From: a virus
Direction: 5' to 3' (one strand)
IMG/VR virus record: IMGVR_UViG_3300018411_000048
Length of the DNA: 37,720 nt
Position numbers and translations under genes: made by a program. The notes beneath the pieces are model-generated. The model saw only the letters and a program-made list of their open reading frames with translations, had not been told where the DNA came from and ran no database searches. Shown piece by piece: positions 1 through 37,720 of this stretch (its first letter is position 1; the number at the start of each line of letters is the position of its first letter).

Positions 1-123
1 CGTATACTCAATAAGTTTCATTTTGGAACCGCAAGAGCATGTTGGTCTAAGTGACATTGGAGCTTTTCTTTTATTCATATTAAACCCTCGCTTTCTCAAC
101 CTTTCAATGGTTATATTGCGTTA
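1..123. repeat. Terminal direct repeat, identical to 37598..37720. Best read as a circular-assembly overlap; unit genome is 37,597 bp.
   Basis: The two copies match base for base. The repeat cuts through ORF 37487..37675, so it is not a natural gene boundary. Confidence 0.95.
109..123 (-). promoter_or_regulatory. Gene-junction motif TAACGCAATATAACC (minus sense), copy 1. The same copy appears again at 37706..37720 in the terminal repeat.
   Basis: Its TAA is the stop codon of 121..372. The next start codon lies 30 nt downstream in minus sense. Confidence 0.6.
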
Positions 124-878: not shown

Positions 879-1280
879 TTAGTGTTTTATTTTAATGCCA
901 TTTTCATTCAATACTTCTAATAGATATTCAAGCTGCTTTGCTCCTAAACCTCGCATATTTTTTAACTCTCTAATAGTTTTCTCTGATAATTCCCCTACTG
1001 TAGTTATGTTGTGTCGGCTCAATATATTAAAAGTAGCAGTAGGTAATTCTAATGTTCTTATATGGTCCGCTAATATGCCGTTGTCAGCCTCTCCAAGTTC
1101 TTTTACCAAAGCAGGTATATCATATTTATAAATTCTTTGTTGTTGCATAAAGTAAGCCGCAGCCGATACATTAGCAAATGGCCCATCTTTATCAAGTGCT
1201 TTTTTAATAAGCCCTTCGTGTATTTCAACCACATCATCACAATAACTTAATATATCTGATATCTTTATATAACCTTTCAT
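879..1280 (-). CDS. RNA polymerase alpha-subunit C-terminal-domain (alpha-CTD, HhH)-like protein
   Basis: 133 aa. The C-terminal LELPTATFNILSRHNITTVGELSEKTIRELKNMRGLGAKQLEYLLEVLNENGI follows the alpha-CTD pattern (LeLSvR..N.L....I.tv.dL......L....n.G.KsL.Ei...L...Gl). Confidence 0.65.
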   Translation of the reverse strand: MKGYIKISDILSYCDDVVEIHEGLIKKALDKDGPFANVSAAAYFMQQQRIYKYDIPALVKELGEADNGILADHIRTLELPTATFNILSRHNITTVGELSEKTIRELKNMRGLGAKQLEYLLEVLNENGIKIKH

Positions 1281-11553: not shown

Positions 11554-11629
11554 ATTGGTGTAGCTCAGTTGATAGAGCATCGGTCTCCAAAACCGAGTGT
11601 CGCAGGTTCGAATCCTGCCACCTTTGCCA
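11554..11629 (+). tRNA. trnW: tRNA-Trp (anticodon CCA)-like, with atypical acceptor stem and D-loop
   Basis: 76-nt cloverleaf. D stem is GCUC/GAGC, anticodon stem UCGGU/ACCGA, anticodon loop CUCCAAA, T arm GCAGG-UUCGAAU-CCUGC, and the CCA end is encoded. Two problems: U2-U71 and U3-U70 are mismatched, and the D-loop reads GA where GG18-19 is expected. Confidence 0.6.
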
Positions 11630-18872: not shown

Positions 18873-20021
18873 CTATACCCCTCCTAATCTAAGCATTAGC
18901 TTTTTATTTTGTATCTCAAGAGCTTTTTCGACTTCTTTTCTTATGCTGAGCGCTGTTTCTCTTCCGCCACTGCCACCTTTAACAGTTATGTTAATGCTAG
19001 GAGCATATGACGTGCTAGAGCTTGATGTGGTGCTAGTGAATTCTCCGTCTGTAACTTTAGCCATGCCTTGCCCTGTTGCCTTTAGATTGTTAGTTTCGCT
19101 CTGCATCCCTAAGTCTAAGCCTTGCCCGATATAGCCACCGTATGAAAACATCAGCTTTGATGGCGAATTAATCTGGAAAAAGTTCTTTAAAGTGTTAGCT
19201 ATCCCACTGCCTATGTTCTTAGCTGTTTCCATCGCACTGTCTAACATTGATAGCATACCATCAACTAAACCTCTAATCATGTTAGCTCCTATTTCCCATA
19301 AATTAATGCCACTAACAAAGCTAATCATGTTGTTAAATGTTGTCTGTACGTTGTGCCATGCTTCGGATACATAGGTTTTAATTGAGTCGCCATAGGTTTT
19401 CCAAACGTATATCAATCCACCTATTACGGCACCTACTGCAATGATTGGAGCTACTGTTGCAAGTATTGGAGCTATTAATGCCCATTGTGCGATAGCTGCT
19501 GCTGTTGTTGCTGTAGTCCACGCTATAATAGCTGGGGTGATTACTGCTGCTATTGCTACTCCTATAGATATTGCCACTGGTGTAAGTGCATCTATGTTTT
19601 CTTTCATCCAATCAAATGCATTTCCAACTGTTTCAACAAATCCTATAAGGTTTTCTATACCATTTGCTACATTTTCAGCCCATTTTTCAATCTGCCCACT
19701 ATCAAGTAAGTTCTGTCCTAATTCTAGTATGTTTTCCAAACTGTCTTTAAAAGCATTAAAAATAGGTTCTCCAACCGTCCTGCCTATTGCTCCTATCATA
19801 TCCTTAGCGTTAGATACCATGCCGTTGAATGTTTTACTCTGTGCCTCCATAGAGCCCTTGTATCTATCTTCCATTATTGCAAATAATGCTGTATTTAAGT
19901 TCTCATAGCTTGTTATCTGCCCTTTGTTGTTCTGGAATATTATACCCATTGCATCTGCTTGTTCTTGAAGCATGTTTTTAGTGATTCCAAACTCTTTAAG
20001 TCTTTCTAATTCCCCTGTCTG
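18873..20021 (-). CDS. Tail tape-measure protein, exon 2 (382 aa)
   Basis: Begins QTGELERLKEFGITK..., followed by a hydrophobic Ala/Ile-rich central region typical of tape-measure proteins. The ATG in the ORF track (20024..20022) is read here as the last 3 nt of the intron. Confidence 0.75.
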   Translation of the reverse strand, partial: QTGELERLKEFGITKNMLQEQADAMGIIFQNNKGQITSYENLNTALFAIMEDRYKGSMEAQSKTFNGMVSNAKDMIGAIGRTVGEPIFNAFKDSLENILELGQNLLDSGQIEKWAENVANGIENLIGFVETVGNAFDWMKENIDALTPVAISIGVAIAAVITPAIIAWTTATTAAAIAQWALIAPILATVAPIIAVGAVIGGLIYVWKTYGDSIKTYVSEAWHNVQTTFNNMISFVSGINLWEIGANMIRGLVDGMLSMLDSAMETAKNIGSGIANTLKNFFQINSPSKLMFSYGGYIGQGLDLGMQSETNNLKATGQGMAKVTDGEFTSTTSSSSTSYAPSINITVKGGSGGRETALSIRKEVEKALEIQNKKLMLRLGGV

Positions 20022-20269
20022 CATTTTGTTATCCTAGTGGCTTTTTATCCTCTAGCTCTTATAGTTTCCTATAAGCTCGGCGTACATTTTCAACGATTAA
20101 CGTTGTCGAGCACTCTTGGAGGGATTATATTCTGCTTTGCAGGTTCACCCTCTACGCTCTACGGTGAGCCACATCTATTACAATGTGCTTTACCTCGGTA
20201 TTAGCATATCAATATTGACTTAGCTTTCACCGATTTTACTCGATTTATAGACGCCCAAATTTTTAGTCC
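20022..20269 (-). ncRNA. Group I intron, ORF-less, 248 nt, subgroup IA-like, interrupting the tape-measure gene
   Basis: P1: exon AGACGCU pairs with intron GGCGUCU (nt 15-21), including the U.G wobble at the 5' splice site. The intron ends in G. Exon ligation is in frame (..AVADA|QTGELERLKEFGI..). A full P3-P9 model can be drawn; see findings. Confidence 0.75.
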
Positions 20270-20758
20270 AGCGTCTGCAACTGCCTCTACTGCCTGCATG
20301 ATATCTTTACCCATAGTAGCAGCCATATCTCCGATTATTGGCAATGTGCTTTGTGCTTCTAGTCCGTAAGTTGTCAATCTTGTAGTAGCTTCCACTATTC
20401 CAGGGACTTCAAAAGGGGTACTCGCTGCGAACTTAGTCGCCCATGCTAGTGCTTCATTTGCCTTCTCAGTGTCTTTCATGACAATATTAAGCGTGTTTCT
20501 GTACTGCTCCATCTCTGCGTTGCCTTGTACGAAGAAATCAAATCCAGCTTTTACACTAAGCCCTGCAAACACTCCAGCCATTAAGCCTTTTAAACCTCTA
20601 AGAGAGCCACCTAGCTTCTTAGATTGTCCCTCTAAGTCGCTAACTCCTTTTCCTGCTTGCCTTGCTTCTTGCTCCATCTTATCAAATGCAGTATTGGCAT
20701 CTTTAATTTTTTTAATTTCACTATCAAAAGTTAGTCTAAATCCTAATTCTCTAAGCAT
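20270..20758 (-). CDS. Tail tape-measure protein, exon 1 (163 aa)
   Basis: MLRELGFRL...GKDIMQAVEAVADA. The ORF track runs on for 22 more codons of intron sequence to a TAA. Confidence 0.75.
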
Positions 20759-20931
20759 TATTTACCTCCCTTCGTATTCGAGAGTTTTATATATTTGTTT
20801 AAAGCGTGATTTACTTCCATAAGAGTGTCTATATCCATCTCACAAGCCTCTGAATAGCTTATAACCTTTTCGACTATAGGCCTCCAAAATATCCACTCAT
20901 TATCCACTTTTTCTTGGTATTCAAAGCTAGA
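20758..20931 (-). CDS. Frameshift extension of the tail assembly chaperone (gpGT-like); +1 frame relative to 20927..21187
   Basis: A 57-codon open frame (SSFEYQEKVDNEWIFW...DIDTLMEVNHALNKYIKLSNTKGGK) exactly fills the chaperone-to-tape-measure gap. It has no RBS or plausible start of its own and ends in a TAATG overlap with the tape-measure start. Confidence 0.55.
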   Translation of the reverse strand, partial: SSFEYQEKVDNEWIFWRPIVEKVISYSEACEMDIDTLMEVNHALNKYIKLSNTKGGK

Positions 20932-21187
20932 TTTTGGACTTGGCTGTAAGAAATTTGTTAGCTTCTGTCATAACCTTCTCGCAGTGCGCTACCCCTTCTG
21001 TTTCAAAATCTTCAAGTGTTAATCTAGGGTTTACCACAACATGCTCTAAAAGATAATCGTATGACTCTACTATACCAAATTCTCCACGTTTTAGCTTGTT
21101 CATGAAATCGTAATATGTTCTAATCGGTAACTTTTGGAAAGTATACTCTTTACCGTCTATTTTAACTTTTTTCTGTTCTAATGCCAT
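20927..21187 (-). CDS. Tail assembly chaperone (gpG-like)
   Basis: 86 aa. Lies between the tube and tape-measure genes. Confidence 0.6.
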   Translation of the reverse strand: MALEQKKVKIDGKEYTFQKLPIRTYYDFMNKLKRGEFGIVESYDYLLEHVVVNPRLTLEDFETEGVAHCEKVMTEANKFLTAKSKI

Positions 21188-34857: not shown

Positions 34858-35385
34858 TTAATAATAAAAGTCGTGTACTGAGTCGCTTCCCCATTTAATC
34901 TTATTCCTACTAGCCCAACTGTTAAGTCCCCTAACATTGAAATATAAAACCTTATCCGACATTATCCACTTACCTGCAAGAGCATCATCAACCGCCTTAA
35001 TGCTTATATCTGTAACCTTTACCGTATTTATACGATTATCTCTAACTATGCAAAACTGATTTTTCTGGTATATTACTTTTCTTATAGTATTCGGAAATAC
35101 CGAACTGTTGACCCTATTAAGTATCACATTTGCAACTCTTAGCTTATCTTCATAACTCGCACCTGTGACCTCTGCTTCTACTGCTCTATATAACAACTGC
35201 CTATCTTGATTACTAACACCGTAGGAGCTATTTAAAGCTCCTGCAAGCGTTAATAATATTATTGCAATAGTAATTATCCTTTTGATGTAATCACGCCCCT
35301 TAAAATTAATATTTCCCGCAACTTTTATGCTCTGGACAGTAACCGTATTCCTTACCCTTGCAATCAAGTTGACTAAATATATCAC
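34858..35385 (-). CDS. SleB/CwlJ-type cell-wall hydrolase with an N-terminal signal/TM segment
   Basis: LLYRAVEAEVTGASYEDKLRVANVILNRVNSSVFPNTIRKVIYQKNQF matches the Hydrolase_2 pattern. The start is uncertain. The GTG at 35385 overlaps thyX by 80 nt, and no ATG, GTG or TTG start lies in frame after the thyX stop. Confidence 0.65.
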   Translation of the reverse strand: MIYLVNLIARVRNTVTVQSIKVAGNINFKGRDYIKRIITIAIILLTLAGALNSSYGVSNQDRQLLYRAVEAEVTGASYEDKLRVANVILNRVNSSVFPNTIRKVIYQKNQFCIVRDNRINTVKVTDISIKAVDDALAGKWIMSDKVLYFNVRGLNSWASRNKIKWGSDSVHDFYY

Positions 35386-35938
35386 CTATAAGCCCTTCTT
35401 CTTTTGATAATATTTCAGTAATGGCATGACTCATTATTCTTATTTCCTCCGAAGCTCTGACACAATTTCTAAGCATTAAAAACTCATACATAGCTTGTAT
35501 ATTAGCCGACATTATCAAGTCAGTAGTAGACATAAGCGGTAGAAATAACTTTGCTGTGTCCTCCTGTCCGTTTTCCTGTTCTATCTTCTGCCACTTAGTA
35601 TATATATCCATTATTGTGTCAAAATCATCTGACATTAAATCTAAAAGTCCATCCTCTACCCATGCAGGCATAAACATTTTAGTATCGGTAAAATCACAGT
35701 ATCTAGTAGATTTAACCGTTAAATTAATGTGCGGATGCCTTGATAATTGCCTTAATGCATCTTGGCTTACATCCTTAACCTCTATACTGATATTACTGTG
35801 CCTTGTAATGCTCCTGTGTCCAGCTTTCCATACTCTATAAGCTAGTTTCGTTTCGTCTTGTGTCTTGGTCTGATATGGCATCACCGCAGCTTTCTTAATT
35901 GATTCCTCTCCAGATATTTCTATTATTTTAATTTCCAT
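35306..35938 (-). CDS. thyX: FAD-dependent thymidylate synthase ThyX-like
   Basis: 210 aa. AGHRSITRHSNISIEVKDVSQDALRQLSRHPHINLTVKSTRY parallels the ThyX ..H.S..EH...F.I.GVSR....QL.RHR..S...S.RY signature. Here RHR reads RHP. Confidence 0.65.
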   Translation of the reverse strand: MEIKIIEISGEESIKKAAVMPYQTKTQDETKLAYRVWKAGHRSITRHSNISIEVKDVSQDALRQLSRHPHINLTVKSTRYCDFTDTKMFMPAWVEDGLLDLMSDDFDTIMDIYTKWQKIEQENGQEDTAKLFLPLMSTTDLIMSANIQAMYEFLMLRNCVRASEEIRIMSHAITEILSKEEGLIGDIFSQLDCKGKEYGYCPEHKSCGKY

Positions 35939-37488: not shown

Positions 37489-37675
37489 AAGCATATCCAC
37501 CTTTCCAAGACCTGTCTGCTTCGATATACTCCATCTTGGGTGTAATGCTACATTCTGGATTATCACATTTCCAATACATGAAATTATCATAATATCCCGT
37601 ATACTCAATAAGTTTCATTTTGGAACCGCAAGAGCATGTTGGTCTAAGTGACATTGGAGCTTTTCTTTTATTCAT
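37487..37675 (-). CDS. Zinc-ribbon small protein
   Basis: 62 aa: MNKRKAPMSLRPTCSCGSKMKLIEYTGYYDNFMYWKCDNPEC..., with CxC...CxxxxC. Its 5' part is duplicated at 1..78 by the terminal overlap. Confidence 0.6.
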   Translation of the reverse strand: MNKRKAPMSLRPTCSCGSKMKLIEYTGYYDNFMYWKCDNPECSITPKMEYIEADRSWKGGYA

Positions 37676-37720
37676 ATTAAACCCTCGCTTTCTCAACCTT
37701 TCAATGGTTATATTGCGTTA
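37598..37720. repeat. Second copy of the 123-bp terminal overlap
   Basis: Identical to 1..123. Confidence 0.95.

What the first reader, a model, noticed from the sequence alone, without database searches (positions are those of the whole stretch)
20022..20269. ORF-less 248-nt group I intron splitting the tail tape-measure gene
The tape-measure gene appears as two ORFs, 20201..20758 and 18873..20024, with a gap between them. The sequence shows five things in minus sense. (a) Exon-1 nucleotides AGACGCU (20276..20270) pair with intron nt 15-21, GGCGUCU (20255..20249). The pairing ends in the U.G wobble that defines a group I 5' splice site (P1). (b) The next upstream intron bases, UUUG, can pair with the first exon-2 bases, CAGA (P10). 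(c) The intron ends in G at 20022; the ATG listed for the second ORF is simply the intron's last three bases. (d) Joining 20270 to 21021-side exon 2 at 20021 is in frame and gives ...MQAVEAVADA|QTGELERLKEFGITK.... From memory this resembles the contiguous sequence of TP901-type tape-measure proteins, but I have not checked it. (e) A canonical core can be drawn in the correct order, using intron numbering. P3 is 27-31 UCGAG with 160-164 CUCGA, and J3/4 is UAAAA. P4 is 37-41 UCGGU with 71-75 ACCGA, with A-rich J4/5 (GAA) and J5/4 (AAU). P5 is 45-47/65-67 plus an apical hairpin. P6 is 83-87 CACAU with 96-100 AUGUG. P7 is G111, G113-U116 with 187-191 ACGCC, with A112 bulged. The hairpin 118-151 fits a P7.1-type insertion, which would suggest subgroup IA. 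P8 is 165-169 CAACG with 175-179 CGUUG, and J8/7 is AAAAUGU. P9 is 195-201/206-212, capped by a GAAA tetraloop. There is no homing-endonuclease ORF. To my knowledge, introns in tape-measure genes are uncommon compared with those in DNA-metabolism, lysin or terminase genes.
Basis: partly seen in the sequence, partly recalled or inferred. Interest (0 to 1): 0.65.

Follow-up and report, generated by a model that had tools for sequence, protein, structure and literature searches.

The report
Group I intron in tape-measure gene
A 248-base self-splicing-type RNA (a group I intron with no gene of its own) interrupts this phage's tail tape-measure gene, which is a real but ordinary feature because related introns, some in tape-measure genes, are already known in phages of Gram-positive bacteria.

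Summary
Window 20022..20269 (minus strand) is an ORF-less 248-nt group I intron. It splits a 545-aa tape-measure gene (exon 1 20270..20758, exon 2 18873..20021).

- **Splice junction.** Removing exactly these 248 nt restores ...AVEAVADA|QTGELERLKEFGITK.... That motif is contiguous and highly conserved in uninterrupted homologues. One is a syntenic intron-less relative with a 547-aa protein at 73% identity.
- **Structure.** On an alignment of nine related phage introns, 95.7% of pair cells form standard pairs and 31 of 51 pairs show compensatory changes. This includes the P3/P7 pseudoknot. No shuffle out of 500 reached these values.
- **Rfam.** RF00028 matches below its threshold (35.9 bits against 50, E 1.3e-7) and only in a short-region scan. 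A related intron scores 39.9 bits.
- **Same-site relative.** Clostridium butyricum phage CB452P1 has a related intron at the identical codon boundary of its homologous gene. That intron carries an HNH-type endonuclease ORF in the P5 loop, so the window copy is probably a derivative that lost the endonuclease.

Group I introns in tape-measure genes, some without endonuclease genes, were reported in Bacillus cereus-group prophages in 2008. This is therefore a new member of a known kind. Splicing itself has not been tested.

The parts
20270..20758 (-). Exon 1 of the tape-measure gene (codons 1-163). It ends ...GCA GAC GCU, and its last 7 nt, AGACGCU (20276..20270), form the 5' strand of P1.
   Evidence: ORF list, sequence, sub-cutoff match to Pfam TMP_3 at 36.7 bits against a cutoff of 41, alignment to full-length homologues.
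20022..20269 (-). ORF-less 248-nt group I intron. It has an IGS, no P2, P3-P9, a P7.1/P7.1a extension, a P9.1 hairpin and a terminal G at 20022.
   Evidence: RF00028 at 35.9 bits, E 1.3e-7. Fold z = -3.69. Helix positions. Covariation with 95.7% of cells paired, 31/51 pairs compensatory, 0/500 shuffles. Homologous introns in other phages.
20249..20255 (-). Internal guide sequence GGCGUCU (intron nt 15-21). It pairs with exon-1 AGACGCU to form P1, with U.G at the splice site.
   Evidence: Sequence. The same IGS core, GGCGUC, occurs at the same site in phage CB452P1.
20256..20259 (-). Intron nt 11-14 UUUG, the candidate P10 partner of the first exon-2 bases CAGA (20021..20018).
   Evidence: Sequence only. 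This is 4 bp including one wobble, so it is weak on its own.
20239..20243 (-). P3 5' strand UCGAG (nt 27-31). It pairs with nt 160-164 (20106..20110).
   Evidence: All 5 pairs covary and 100% of cells are paired (helix 1).
20195..20233 (-). P4-P5 domain (nt 37-75). P4 is UCGGU/ACCGA and P5 is AGC/GCU, with an apical hairpin. The apical loop is where relatives carry an ORF or a 21-nt insertion. The UAA that stops exon-1 read-through lies at nt 67-69.
   Evidence: helices 2, 3. Indel relative to L024 and ORF position in CB452P1.
20170..20187 (-). P6 hairpin CACAU/AUGUG (nt 83-100).
   Evidence: Relatives have different sequences that still form hairpins here. The automatic alignment of this helix is poor, with 73% of cells paired.
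20154..20159 (-). P7 5' strand (G111, bulged A112, G113-U116). It pairs with nt 187-191 (20079..20083). Inferred guanosine-binding helix.
   Evidence: 100% of cells paired and 2 of 5 pairs compensatory (helix 6). The assignment as G-binding site is inferred from general group I knowledge.
20119..20152 (-). P7.1/P7.1a extended hairpin (nt 118-151) between P7 and P3'.
   Evidence: In P7.1, 4 of 5 pairs are compensatory and 100% of cells are paired. In the inner stem, 3 of 4 pairs are compensatory (helices 7, 8).
20091..20105 (-). P8 hairpin CAACG/CGUUG (nt 165-179), followed by J8/7 AAAAUGU.
   Evidence: 4 of 5 pairs compensatory and 97.8% of cells paired (helix 9).
20058..20075 (-). P9 hairpin (nt 195-212) with a GAAA tetraloop.
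   Evidence: helices 10, 11.
20022..20055 (-). P9.1 hairpin CUAGAGG/CCACUAG (nt 215-236) plus the conserved 3' tail GAUAACAAAAUG ending in the terminal G.
   Evidence: 3 of 7 pairs compensatory and 98.4% of cells paired (helix 12). The 29-nt 3' module is identical in 8 IMG/VR contigs that carry a different intron.
18873..20021 (-). Exon 2 of the tape-measure gene (codons 164-545 plus the stop). It begins CAG ACA GGG (QTG...).

Best explanation

**Inferred mechanism.** The late transcript folds into the P3-P9 core. Exon-1 AGACGCU pairs with the internal guide GGCGUCU to form P1. A free guanosine bound in P7 attacks after the U of the U.G pair at 20270. The terminal G (20022) then takes the guanosine site, and the exons are joined, helped by a short P10. 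The result is one mRNA for a 545-aa tape-measure protein that reads ...AVEAVADA-QTGELERLKEFG....

**Inferred origin.** The intron sits in the most conserved motif of the protein, as homing introns typically do. It is most likely a derivative of a mobile intron that has lost its endonuclease. The mobile form still exists at the same codon boundary in Clostridium butyricum phage CB452P1.

**Shown here:** the boundaries, the reading frame, the contiguous homologues, the family relationship and the covariation-supported structure.

**Inferred, not shown:** catalysis, the guanosine site, splicing in vivo and the loss of the endonuclease gene.
For: - **Frame.** Splicing in silico gives an in-frame 545-aa ORF.
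- **Junction.** It is contiguous and invariant (Q164-T165-G166-E167...) in TP-84, S4-3, P0001, P0002, P0006, P0008, P0009 and P0033.
- **Intron-less relative.** L023 is syntenic and has the uninterrupted site GTTGCCGATGCA|CAAACCGGA.
- **Rfam.** Intron_gpI is the best match, with E 1.3e-7. A family member scores 39.9 bits, also below threshold.
- **Stability.** The fold is more stable than all 200 shuffles.
- **Relatives.** 97 phage records hold related sequence. Many hits lie between split gene halves and next to annotated homing or HNH endonuclease ORFs.
- **Covariation.** 95.7% of cells are paired, 31/51 pairs are compensatory, 0/500 shuffles reach this, and slid controls give 33-43%. The pseudoknotted P3/P7 assignment is needed to reach these values (79.0% when written without it).
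- **Same site in CB452P1.** VDA|GVGEFERLKEFG, IGS GGCGUC, no P2, and a 212-aa ORF in the P5 loop that matches PHROG 'HNH endonuclease' families at E 4.6e-62.
- **Close relatives with the intron.** L024 and L025 keep it at 246/248 identity, while the exons are 89-91% identical.
Against: - The RF00028 score is below the curated gathering score (35.9 against 50). The match disappears in whole-window scans, both at gathering threshold and in E-value mode.
- There are no transcript or splicing data.
- P10 is only 4 bp with a wobble.
- The exon-1 frame stays open for 22 codons into the intron, through P3, P4 and P5. Translating ribosomes could therefore interfere with folding.
- Three of the nine aligned sequences are constructs from which I removed the ORF by hand, and the tested structure was derived from the window sequence itself.
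- P6 is poorly supported in the automatic alignment.
Confidence: 0.93

Rival explanations
1. The intron is a decayed relic. It has the group I fold but no longer splices, or splices only poorly. The tape-measure gene in this metagenome-type genome would then be inactive, or would depend on a host or phage factor for splicing.
For: There is no endonuclease ORF, which marks a late stage of the homing cycle. There is no P2. The Rfam score is below threshold. No splicing data exist.
Against: - All core helices are intact in the window copy, apart from one A.A mismatch in the peripheral P9.1 hairpin.
- Across relatives the helices are kept by compensatory changes.
- The intron is 99.2% identical in a relative whose exons have diverged by about 10%. 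That is the opposite of neutral decay.
- Both exons keep open frames and conserved residues.
- A tape-measure protein is needed to build a tail (general knowledge).
Confidence: 0.05
2. There is no splicing, and the gene is naturally split. Two separate proteins of 185 aa and 383 aa would be made, the second from the AGGA...AUG at the end of the element. The 248 nt would be a structured intergenic spacer.
For: - Gene callers predict exactly these two ORFs here and in relatives.
- The 3' tail AGGAUAACAAAAUG resembles a ribosome-binding site plus a start codon in frame with exon 2.
- Related loci are annotated as two genes.
Against: - The break falls inside an invariant motif that is contiguous in every uninterrupted homologue.
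- The spacer is homologous to introns in unrelated genes (terminase, recD helicase, other tape-measure genes), so it is not specific to this gene.
- The group I core covaries.
- The only other relative broken at this point, CB452P1, is broken by a related intron that carries an endonuclease ORF.
Confidence: 0.02

Closest known systems
Group I introns TMP-IVS1/2/3 in tape-measure genes of Bacillus cereus-group prophages (Tourasse & Kolsto 2008, PMC2504315)
   Same: These are group I introns of subgroup IA in the tape-measure gene of Bacillota phages. Some lack a complete homing endonuclease gene. They insert in conserved stretches, and P1/IGS is adapted to each site. A member of the window's intron family lies in the tape-measure gene of B. 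thuringiensis phage BMBtp13, next to an HNH nuclease ORF.
   Different: The host protein is different: over 1200 aa in those prophages, against a 545-aa TMP_3-type protein of a myovirus-like phage here. The insertion site also differs (ADA|QTGELERLKEFG). I could not compare the sequences directly with the published IVS elements.
Intron in the tape-measure gene of Clostridium butyricum phage CB452P1 (OP172752.1; not annotated as an intron in that record)
   Same: It occupies the identical codon boundary in a homologous protein. It has the same IGS core (GGCGUC), no P2, the same core helices and the same 3' tail. Identity is 68-78% over the shared ribozyme.
   Different: CB452P1's intron is 936 nt and carries a 212-aa ORF in the P5 loop that matches PHROG HNH-endonuclease families. 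It also has an enlarged P9. The window intron is 248 nt with no ORF.
ORF-less introns of Sextaecvirus-like phages (Staphylococcus phage vB_SpsS-DH5, Arcanobacterium phage TPWB06)
   Same: They are 77-78% identical over 90% of the intron. They are also ORF-less and also in a tape-measure gene. RF00028 scores TPWB06 at 39.9 bits, also below threshold.
   Different: The tape-measure family and the site are different (..IVNLG|NNMAAQEDE..). They have a P2 hairpin with a GAAA loop that the window intron lacks.
Classical phage subgroup IA introns (T4 td/nrdB, Twort orf142, SPO1 DNA polymerase); comparison from general knowledge only
   Same: The inferred self-splicing chemistry is the same. All have an extra P7.1-type element between P7 and P3', insert in conserved protein-coding sequence, and have an in-frame stop soon after the 5' splice site.
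   Different: Those are in DNA-metabolism or unknown genes and were shown to splice experimentally. I made no sequence comparison with them here.

Membership tests
Group I intron (Rfam RF00028 Intron_gpI) | Covariance-model score at or above the curated gathering score (50 bits) | tested here: not met
   The score is 35.9 bits with E 1.3e-7 in a 501-nt scan. Nothing is listed in the whole-window scans. A clear family member, TPWB06, scores 39.9 bits, and eight related loci give nothing when scanned together. The model is therefore insensitive to this phage lineage. The failure lowers confidence only slightly.
Group I intron | Conserved core helices in the order P3-P4-P5-P6-P7-P3'-P8-P7', with the P3/P7 pseudoknot, supported by covariation | tested here: met
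   One search gives 95.7% of cells paired, 31/51 pairs with compensatory change, and 0/500 shuffles. P3 has 5/5 pairs covarying, P7 2/5 and P8 4/5. Writing the structure without the pseudoknot drops pairing to 79.0%.
Group I intron | 5' splice site after a U that forms a U.G wobble with the internal guide sequence (P1) | tested here: met
   Exon AGACGCU pairs with intron GGCGUCU. In CB452P1, UGACGCU pairs with GGCGUCG at the same site. In TPWB06, UGGGU pairs with GCCCA.
Group I intron | Intron ends in G (omega G), and exon joining restores the host reading frame | tested here: met
   The G is at 20022. The spliced ORF is in frame. The junction has no gap against uninterrupted homologues. The boundaries cannot be slid without changing the product.
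Group I intron | Guanosine-dependent self-splicing | not testable with these tools
   This needs an in vitro transcript with GTP, or RNA from infected cells.
Subgroup IA | Extra helices (P7.1 with P7.1a or P7.2) between P7 and P3' | tested here: inconclusive
   An extended hairpin at nt 118-151, with an inner stem at 128-138, lies at that position and covaries (helices 7, 8). I did not compare it with a formal IA1/IA2 definition or with reference structures. One continuous hairpin looks more like P7.1/P7.1a, but that rests on my recollection of the classification.
Mobile (homing) group I intron | Encodes a homing endonuclease | tested here: not met
   There is no ORF in the 248 nt. No HNH or GIY-YIG domain was found in the 20 other window ORFs scanned against Pfam. 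The same-site relative in CB452P1 does carry an HNH-type ORF.
Tape-measure protein (Pfam TMP_3, PF20155) | Pfam match, and position after the tail-chaperone genes and before the distal-tail and baseplate genes | tested here: met
   Exon 1 matches PF20155 at 36.7 bits, E 4.7e-9, below the cutoff of 41. Full-length homologues carry PF20155. The gene order sheath, tube, two small ORFs, TMP, Dit-like is the same in L023.

The most novel reading that the evidence does not exclude
The conserved 3' tail of this intron family, AGGAUAACAAA(A/G/U)UG, may be more than a ribozyme element. It reads as a Shine-Dalgarno sequence plus a start codon (AUG, GUG or UUG). In the three tape-measure cases whose splice sites I read (the window, TPWB06 and CB452P1) it is in frame with exon 2. 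Unspliced transcripts could then yield the C-terminal 383-aa part of the tape-measure protein on its own. Splicing efficiency would set the ratio of full-length protein to C-terminal fragment.

A second, related reading concerns mobility. The intron is 99.2% identical between phages whose flanking genes differ by about 10%. This could mean that an ORF-less intron is still moving between phages, for example through an endonuclease supplied in trans.
Probability: 0.07. Interest if true: 0.55.

Novelty: new member of a known kind. Interest (0 to 1): 0.27.

Why it matters
- **Annotation.** Gene callers report two ORFs here and in several GenBank phages: 'hypothetical protein' plus 'tape measure protein' in TPWB06, two 'hypothetical protein' ORFs in CB452P1, and 'TMP repeat containing protein' entries in CBP1. 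The real product is probably one protein. Tail-length predictions made from the tape-measure length would otherwise be wrong.
- **Detection.** A widespread lineage of phage group I introns falls below Rfam's RF00028 threshold, so routine scans miss it.
- **Intron life cycle.** There are three states at one site: an intron with an endonuclease gene in CB452P1, ORF-less introns in the window and L024, and an empty site in L023. Together they give a small but clean natural example of the gain, degeneration and loss cycle of homing introns, in a structural gene.

None of this is new in kind.

Tried and rejected
- **Rfam on large inputs.** Whole-window scans at gathering threshold and in E-value mode do not list the intron. 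Eight related loci scanned together also give nothing. Only short-region scans do. I treated this as a property of the filters and the model, not as evidence against the intron.
- **Search for close relatives by protein.** The search for related loci with the spliced protein found nothing in genome contigs or viral contigs. The relatives came instead from the protein database and the look-up of encoding contigs.
- **First covariation count.** I wrote P3 and P7 with one bracket type, which mis-paired them and gave 79.0%. I redid it with P7 as a pseudoknot.
- **21-nt insertion in L024.** I tested whether the extra 21 nt in the P5 loop of L024 is a recognisable remnant of the CB452P1 endonuclease ORF. 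The alignment shows only scattered short matches, so I make no such claim.
- **Second intron copy.** An nhmmer search with the family profile finds only this one in the window.
- **Free-standing endonuclease.** None was found among the 20 window ORFs scanned.
- **TPWB06 and CBP1 insertion sites.** TPWB06 gives no tblastn match around the junction, and its exon sequences place the intron in a different motif. For CBP1, tblastn matches only the C-terminal part of the window protein, so its site was not located. BMBtp13 gave no tblastn match either.
- **Rejected mechanisms.** An intein, a programmed frameshift and a group II intron are all ruled out. The exons are in the same frame, the insert has stops in all frames, and the fold is group I.

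Full report
**What is there.** On the minus strand the tape-measure region is read as two ORFs: 20201..20758 (185 aa) and 18873..20024 (383 aa). The first matches Pfam TMP_3 at 36.7 bits, just under the cutoff of 41.
- Exon 1 ends GCAGACGCU.
- The next 248 nt begin GGACUAAAAAUUUGGGCGUCU and end GAUAACAAAAUG.
- Exon 2 begins CAGACAGGG.

Removing 20022..20269 gives an in-frame 1638-nt ORF that encodes 545 aa and reads ...MQAVEAVADA|QTGELERLKEFGITK.... The exon-1 frame runs 22 codons into the insert and stops at a UAA at intron nt 67-69.

**Is it a group I intron?** Four lines of evidence agree.

*Rfam.* In a 501-nt scan the best family is Intron_gpI (RF00028) at 35.9 bits and E 1.3e-7. This is below the curated 50-bit threshold. 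The match is not listed when the whole window is scanned, either at gathering threshold or in E-value mode. A clear relative scores 39.9 bits, and eight related loci scanned together return nothing. The model and its filters are simply weak on this lineage.

*Thermodynamics.* The 248 nt fold at -65.8 kcal/mol with z = -3.69, better than all 200 shuffles. The MFE structure contains P3, P4/P5, P6, P7.1, P8 and P9.

*Relatives.* A sensitive blastn search finds related sequence in 97 phage records from Staphylococcus, Bacillus, Clostridium, Clostridioides, Enterocloster and others. The best hits are 68-78% identical over about 90% of the element. In the records I inspected, the related sequence lies between two halves of a gene, often next to an ORF annotated as an endonuclease:
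- recD-like helicase in Bacillus phage PJN02, with a 'mobile intron protein' and an endonuclease
- terminase large subunit in Staphylococcus phage S-CoN_Ph10, with a homing endonuclease
- tape-measure genes in Arcanobacterium phage TPWB06, B. thuringiensis phage BMBtp13 (with an HNH nuclease) and Caldibacillus phage CBP1

*Covariation.* I aligned nine sequences:
- the window
- five ORF-less relatives
- three relatives from which I cut out the ORF

With P7 written as a pseudoknot relative to P3, the counts are as follows.

| Measure | Value |
|---|---|
| Cells forming standard pairs | 95.7% |
| Pairs with compensatory changes | 31 of 51 |
| Shuffles reaching the observed values | 0 of 500 |
| Pairing when 3' partners are slid 1-3 columns | 33-43% |
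| P3 | all 5 pairs covary (six different sequence versions) |
| P7 | 2 of 5 pairs covary |
| P7.1 | 4 of 5 pairs covary |
| P8 | 4 of 5 pairs covary |

My first attempt used one bracket type, which mis-paired P3 with P7 and gave only 79.0%. That difference is itself a check that the pseudoknotted group I topology is the one that fits.

Three caveats apply. Three sequences are hand-made ORF deletions. The structure was derived from the window sequence. P6 is badly aligned by MAFFT, although each sequence has a hairpin there.

**Is the splice junction right?** Yes. Geobacillus phage TP-84 and Bacillus phage S4-3 read AVEAIADAQTGELERLKEFGITK and AIEAFADAQTGELERLKEFGITK without interruption. A search of the large protein collection returned three kinds of relative:
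- Two full-length proteins of 547 aa at 72-73% identity (P0001, P0002).
- Two 383-aa proteins at 93-95% identity that begin MQTGEL... (P0003, P0004). These are exon-2 ORFs of intron-carrying relatives.
- Many more distant tape-measure proteins.

In the alignment, Q164, T165, G166 and E167 and most of ERLKEFGITK are invariant, and there is no gap at the junction.

P0001's contig (L023) has the same gene order and an uninterrupted site, GTTGCCGATGCA|CAAACCGGA. That order is sheath, tube, two small ORFs, tape measure, Dit-like and baseplate. The boundaries cannot be shifted by even one base without changing the product.

**Same site, different state.** Clostridium butyricum phage CB452P1 has a homologous tape-measure gene broken at exactly the same codon boundary...ATEAMVDA|GVGEFERLKEFGLSK. 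Its insert is 936 nt.
- It has the same guide core (GGCGUC, pairing with exon UGACGCU) and, like the window, no P2.
- It has the same core and 3' tail.
- It carries a 212-aa ORF in the P5 loop that runs into the P4 3' strand.
- That ORF has no Pfam hit but matches PHROG families annotated as HNH endonuclease at E 4.6e-62.

The site therefore exists in three states: empty in L023, occupied by an endonuclease-carrying intron in CB452P1, and occupied by an ORF-less intron in the window, L024 and L025. This is the pattern expected from the homing cycle described for bacterial group I introns (PMC2504315, PMC3984707). That the window intron descends from an ORF-carrying one is an inference. The 21-nt indel in the same P5 loop of L024 is consistent with it but is not a recognisable ORF remnant.

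**How it most likely works.** From established group I chemistry, the steps would be:
1. P1 forms between AGACGCU and GGCGUCU.
2. Guanosine bound in P7 attacks after the U at 20270. P7 here is G111 and G113-U116 paired with A187-C191, with A112 bulged.
3. The terminal G at 20022 replaces the guanosine.
4. The exons are ligated, aided by a weak P10 (UUUG with CAGA).

None of these steps was tested. A translating ribosome would run through P3-P5 before meeting the UAA, so splicing may depend on timing relative to translation. This issue is discussed for phage introns in PMC3984707.

**Comparison with what is known.** Group I introns in tape-measure genes are published. Tourasse and Kolsto (2008, PMC2504315) found them at three sites in B. 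cereus-group prophages. They belong to subgroups IA1 and IA2, some lack a complete endonuclease gene, and they sit in conserved stretches with P1 adapted to each site.

What is specific here:
- a different tape-measure family (545 aa, TMP_3 type, myovirus-like tail)
- a new insertion site in the ADAQTGELERLKEFG motif
- absence of P2
- the three-state comparison described above

The subgroup call remains untested against formal definitions. IA is suggested by the extra hairpin between P7 and P3', which is one continuous P7.1/P7.1a-like stem.

**Context.** The window ends overlap by exactly 123 nt, so it is a circular assembly of a complete ~37.6-kb genome. All genes are on the minus strand. They include terminase, portal, major head, sheath, tube, baseplate, amidase, ERF, primase and helicase. 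The major head protein is closest to that of a Terrisporobacter phage at 67%, and G+C is 35.7%. The host is therefore probably a low-GC member of the Clostridia, but this is not established.

**Verdict.** It is a new member of a known kind, useful mainly for correct annotation. Interest is low to moderate.

Noticed in passing
window 20022..20269 compared with L024 1880..2148: The intron differs from that of a close relative by 2 substitutions in 248 nt plus one 21-nt indel in the P5 loop. Exon 1 is 90.6% identical, exon 2 is 89.2% and the neighbouring genes are about 88%. The intron is therefore far more conserved than its host gene. The cause could be strong constraint or recent lateral movement of an ORF-less intron.
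   Followed up: partly
window 20022..20036 (minus strand); also L001 4200..4214 and L018 1700..1714: The family's conserved 3' tail, AGGAUAACAAA(A/G/U)UG, looks like a Shine-Dalgarno sequence plus a start codon (AUG, GUG or UUG). In the tape-measure cases it is in frame with exon 2. This is why gene callers start the downstream ORF inside the intron. Whether it is ever used for translation is unknown.
   Followed up: no
L004-L011 (IMG/VR contigs, e.g. L004 4430..4758): Eight viral contigs share the window intron's last 29 nt exactly. They carry a different, ORF-containing intron in an unrelated gene whose exon 2 begins DYQSEVDVITEDAREKKW. The P9.1/3'-tail module appears to be shared across otherwise divergent introns.
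   Followed up: partly
window 1..123 and 37598..37720: There is an exact 123-nt terminal overlap, so the window is a circularly closed assembly of a complete ~37.6-kb phage genome.
   Followed up: yes
window 11554..11629 (+): A tRNA-Trp (anticodon CCA) lies on the plus strand, opposite to every protein-coding gene of the genome. It sits between the ERF recombinase and amidase genes.
   Followed up: no
window 879..1280 (-): A 133-aa ORF carries a domain resembling the C-terminal domain of the bacterial RNA polymerase alpha subunit (Pfam PF03118, E 1.1e-11). This is unusual for a small phage.
   Followed up: no
window 20758..21187 (-): Two small ORFs of 86 aa and 49 aa lie just upstream of the tape-measure gene, in the position of the tail-assembly chaperone pair that is usually joined by a programmed frameshift. 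I saw no canonical slippery heptamer at the junction.
   Followed up: no
window 34858..35938 (-): A ThyX-type thymidylate synthase ORF (35306..35938) overlaps by about 80 nt the listed start of a cell-wall hydrolase ORF (34858..35385, GTG start). The true start of the hydrolase is probably further downstream.
   Followed up: no
L021 (Caldibacillus phage CBP1) 1501..1593 and L019 (Bacillus phage BMBtp13) 1501..1639: Other GenBank phages have tape-measure genes annotated as two or three separate CDS, with sequence related to this intron family between them. These are probably unannotated introns as well.
   Followed up: partly
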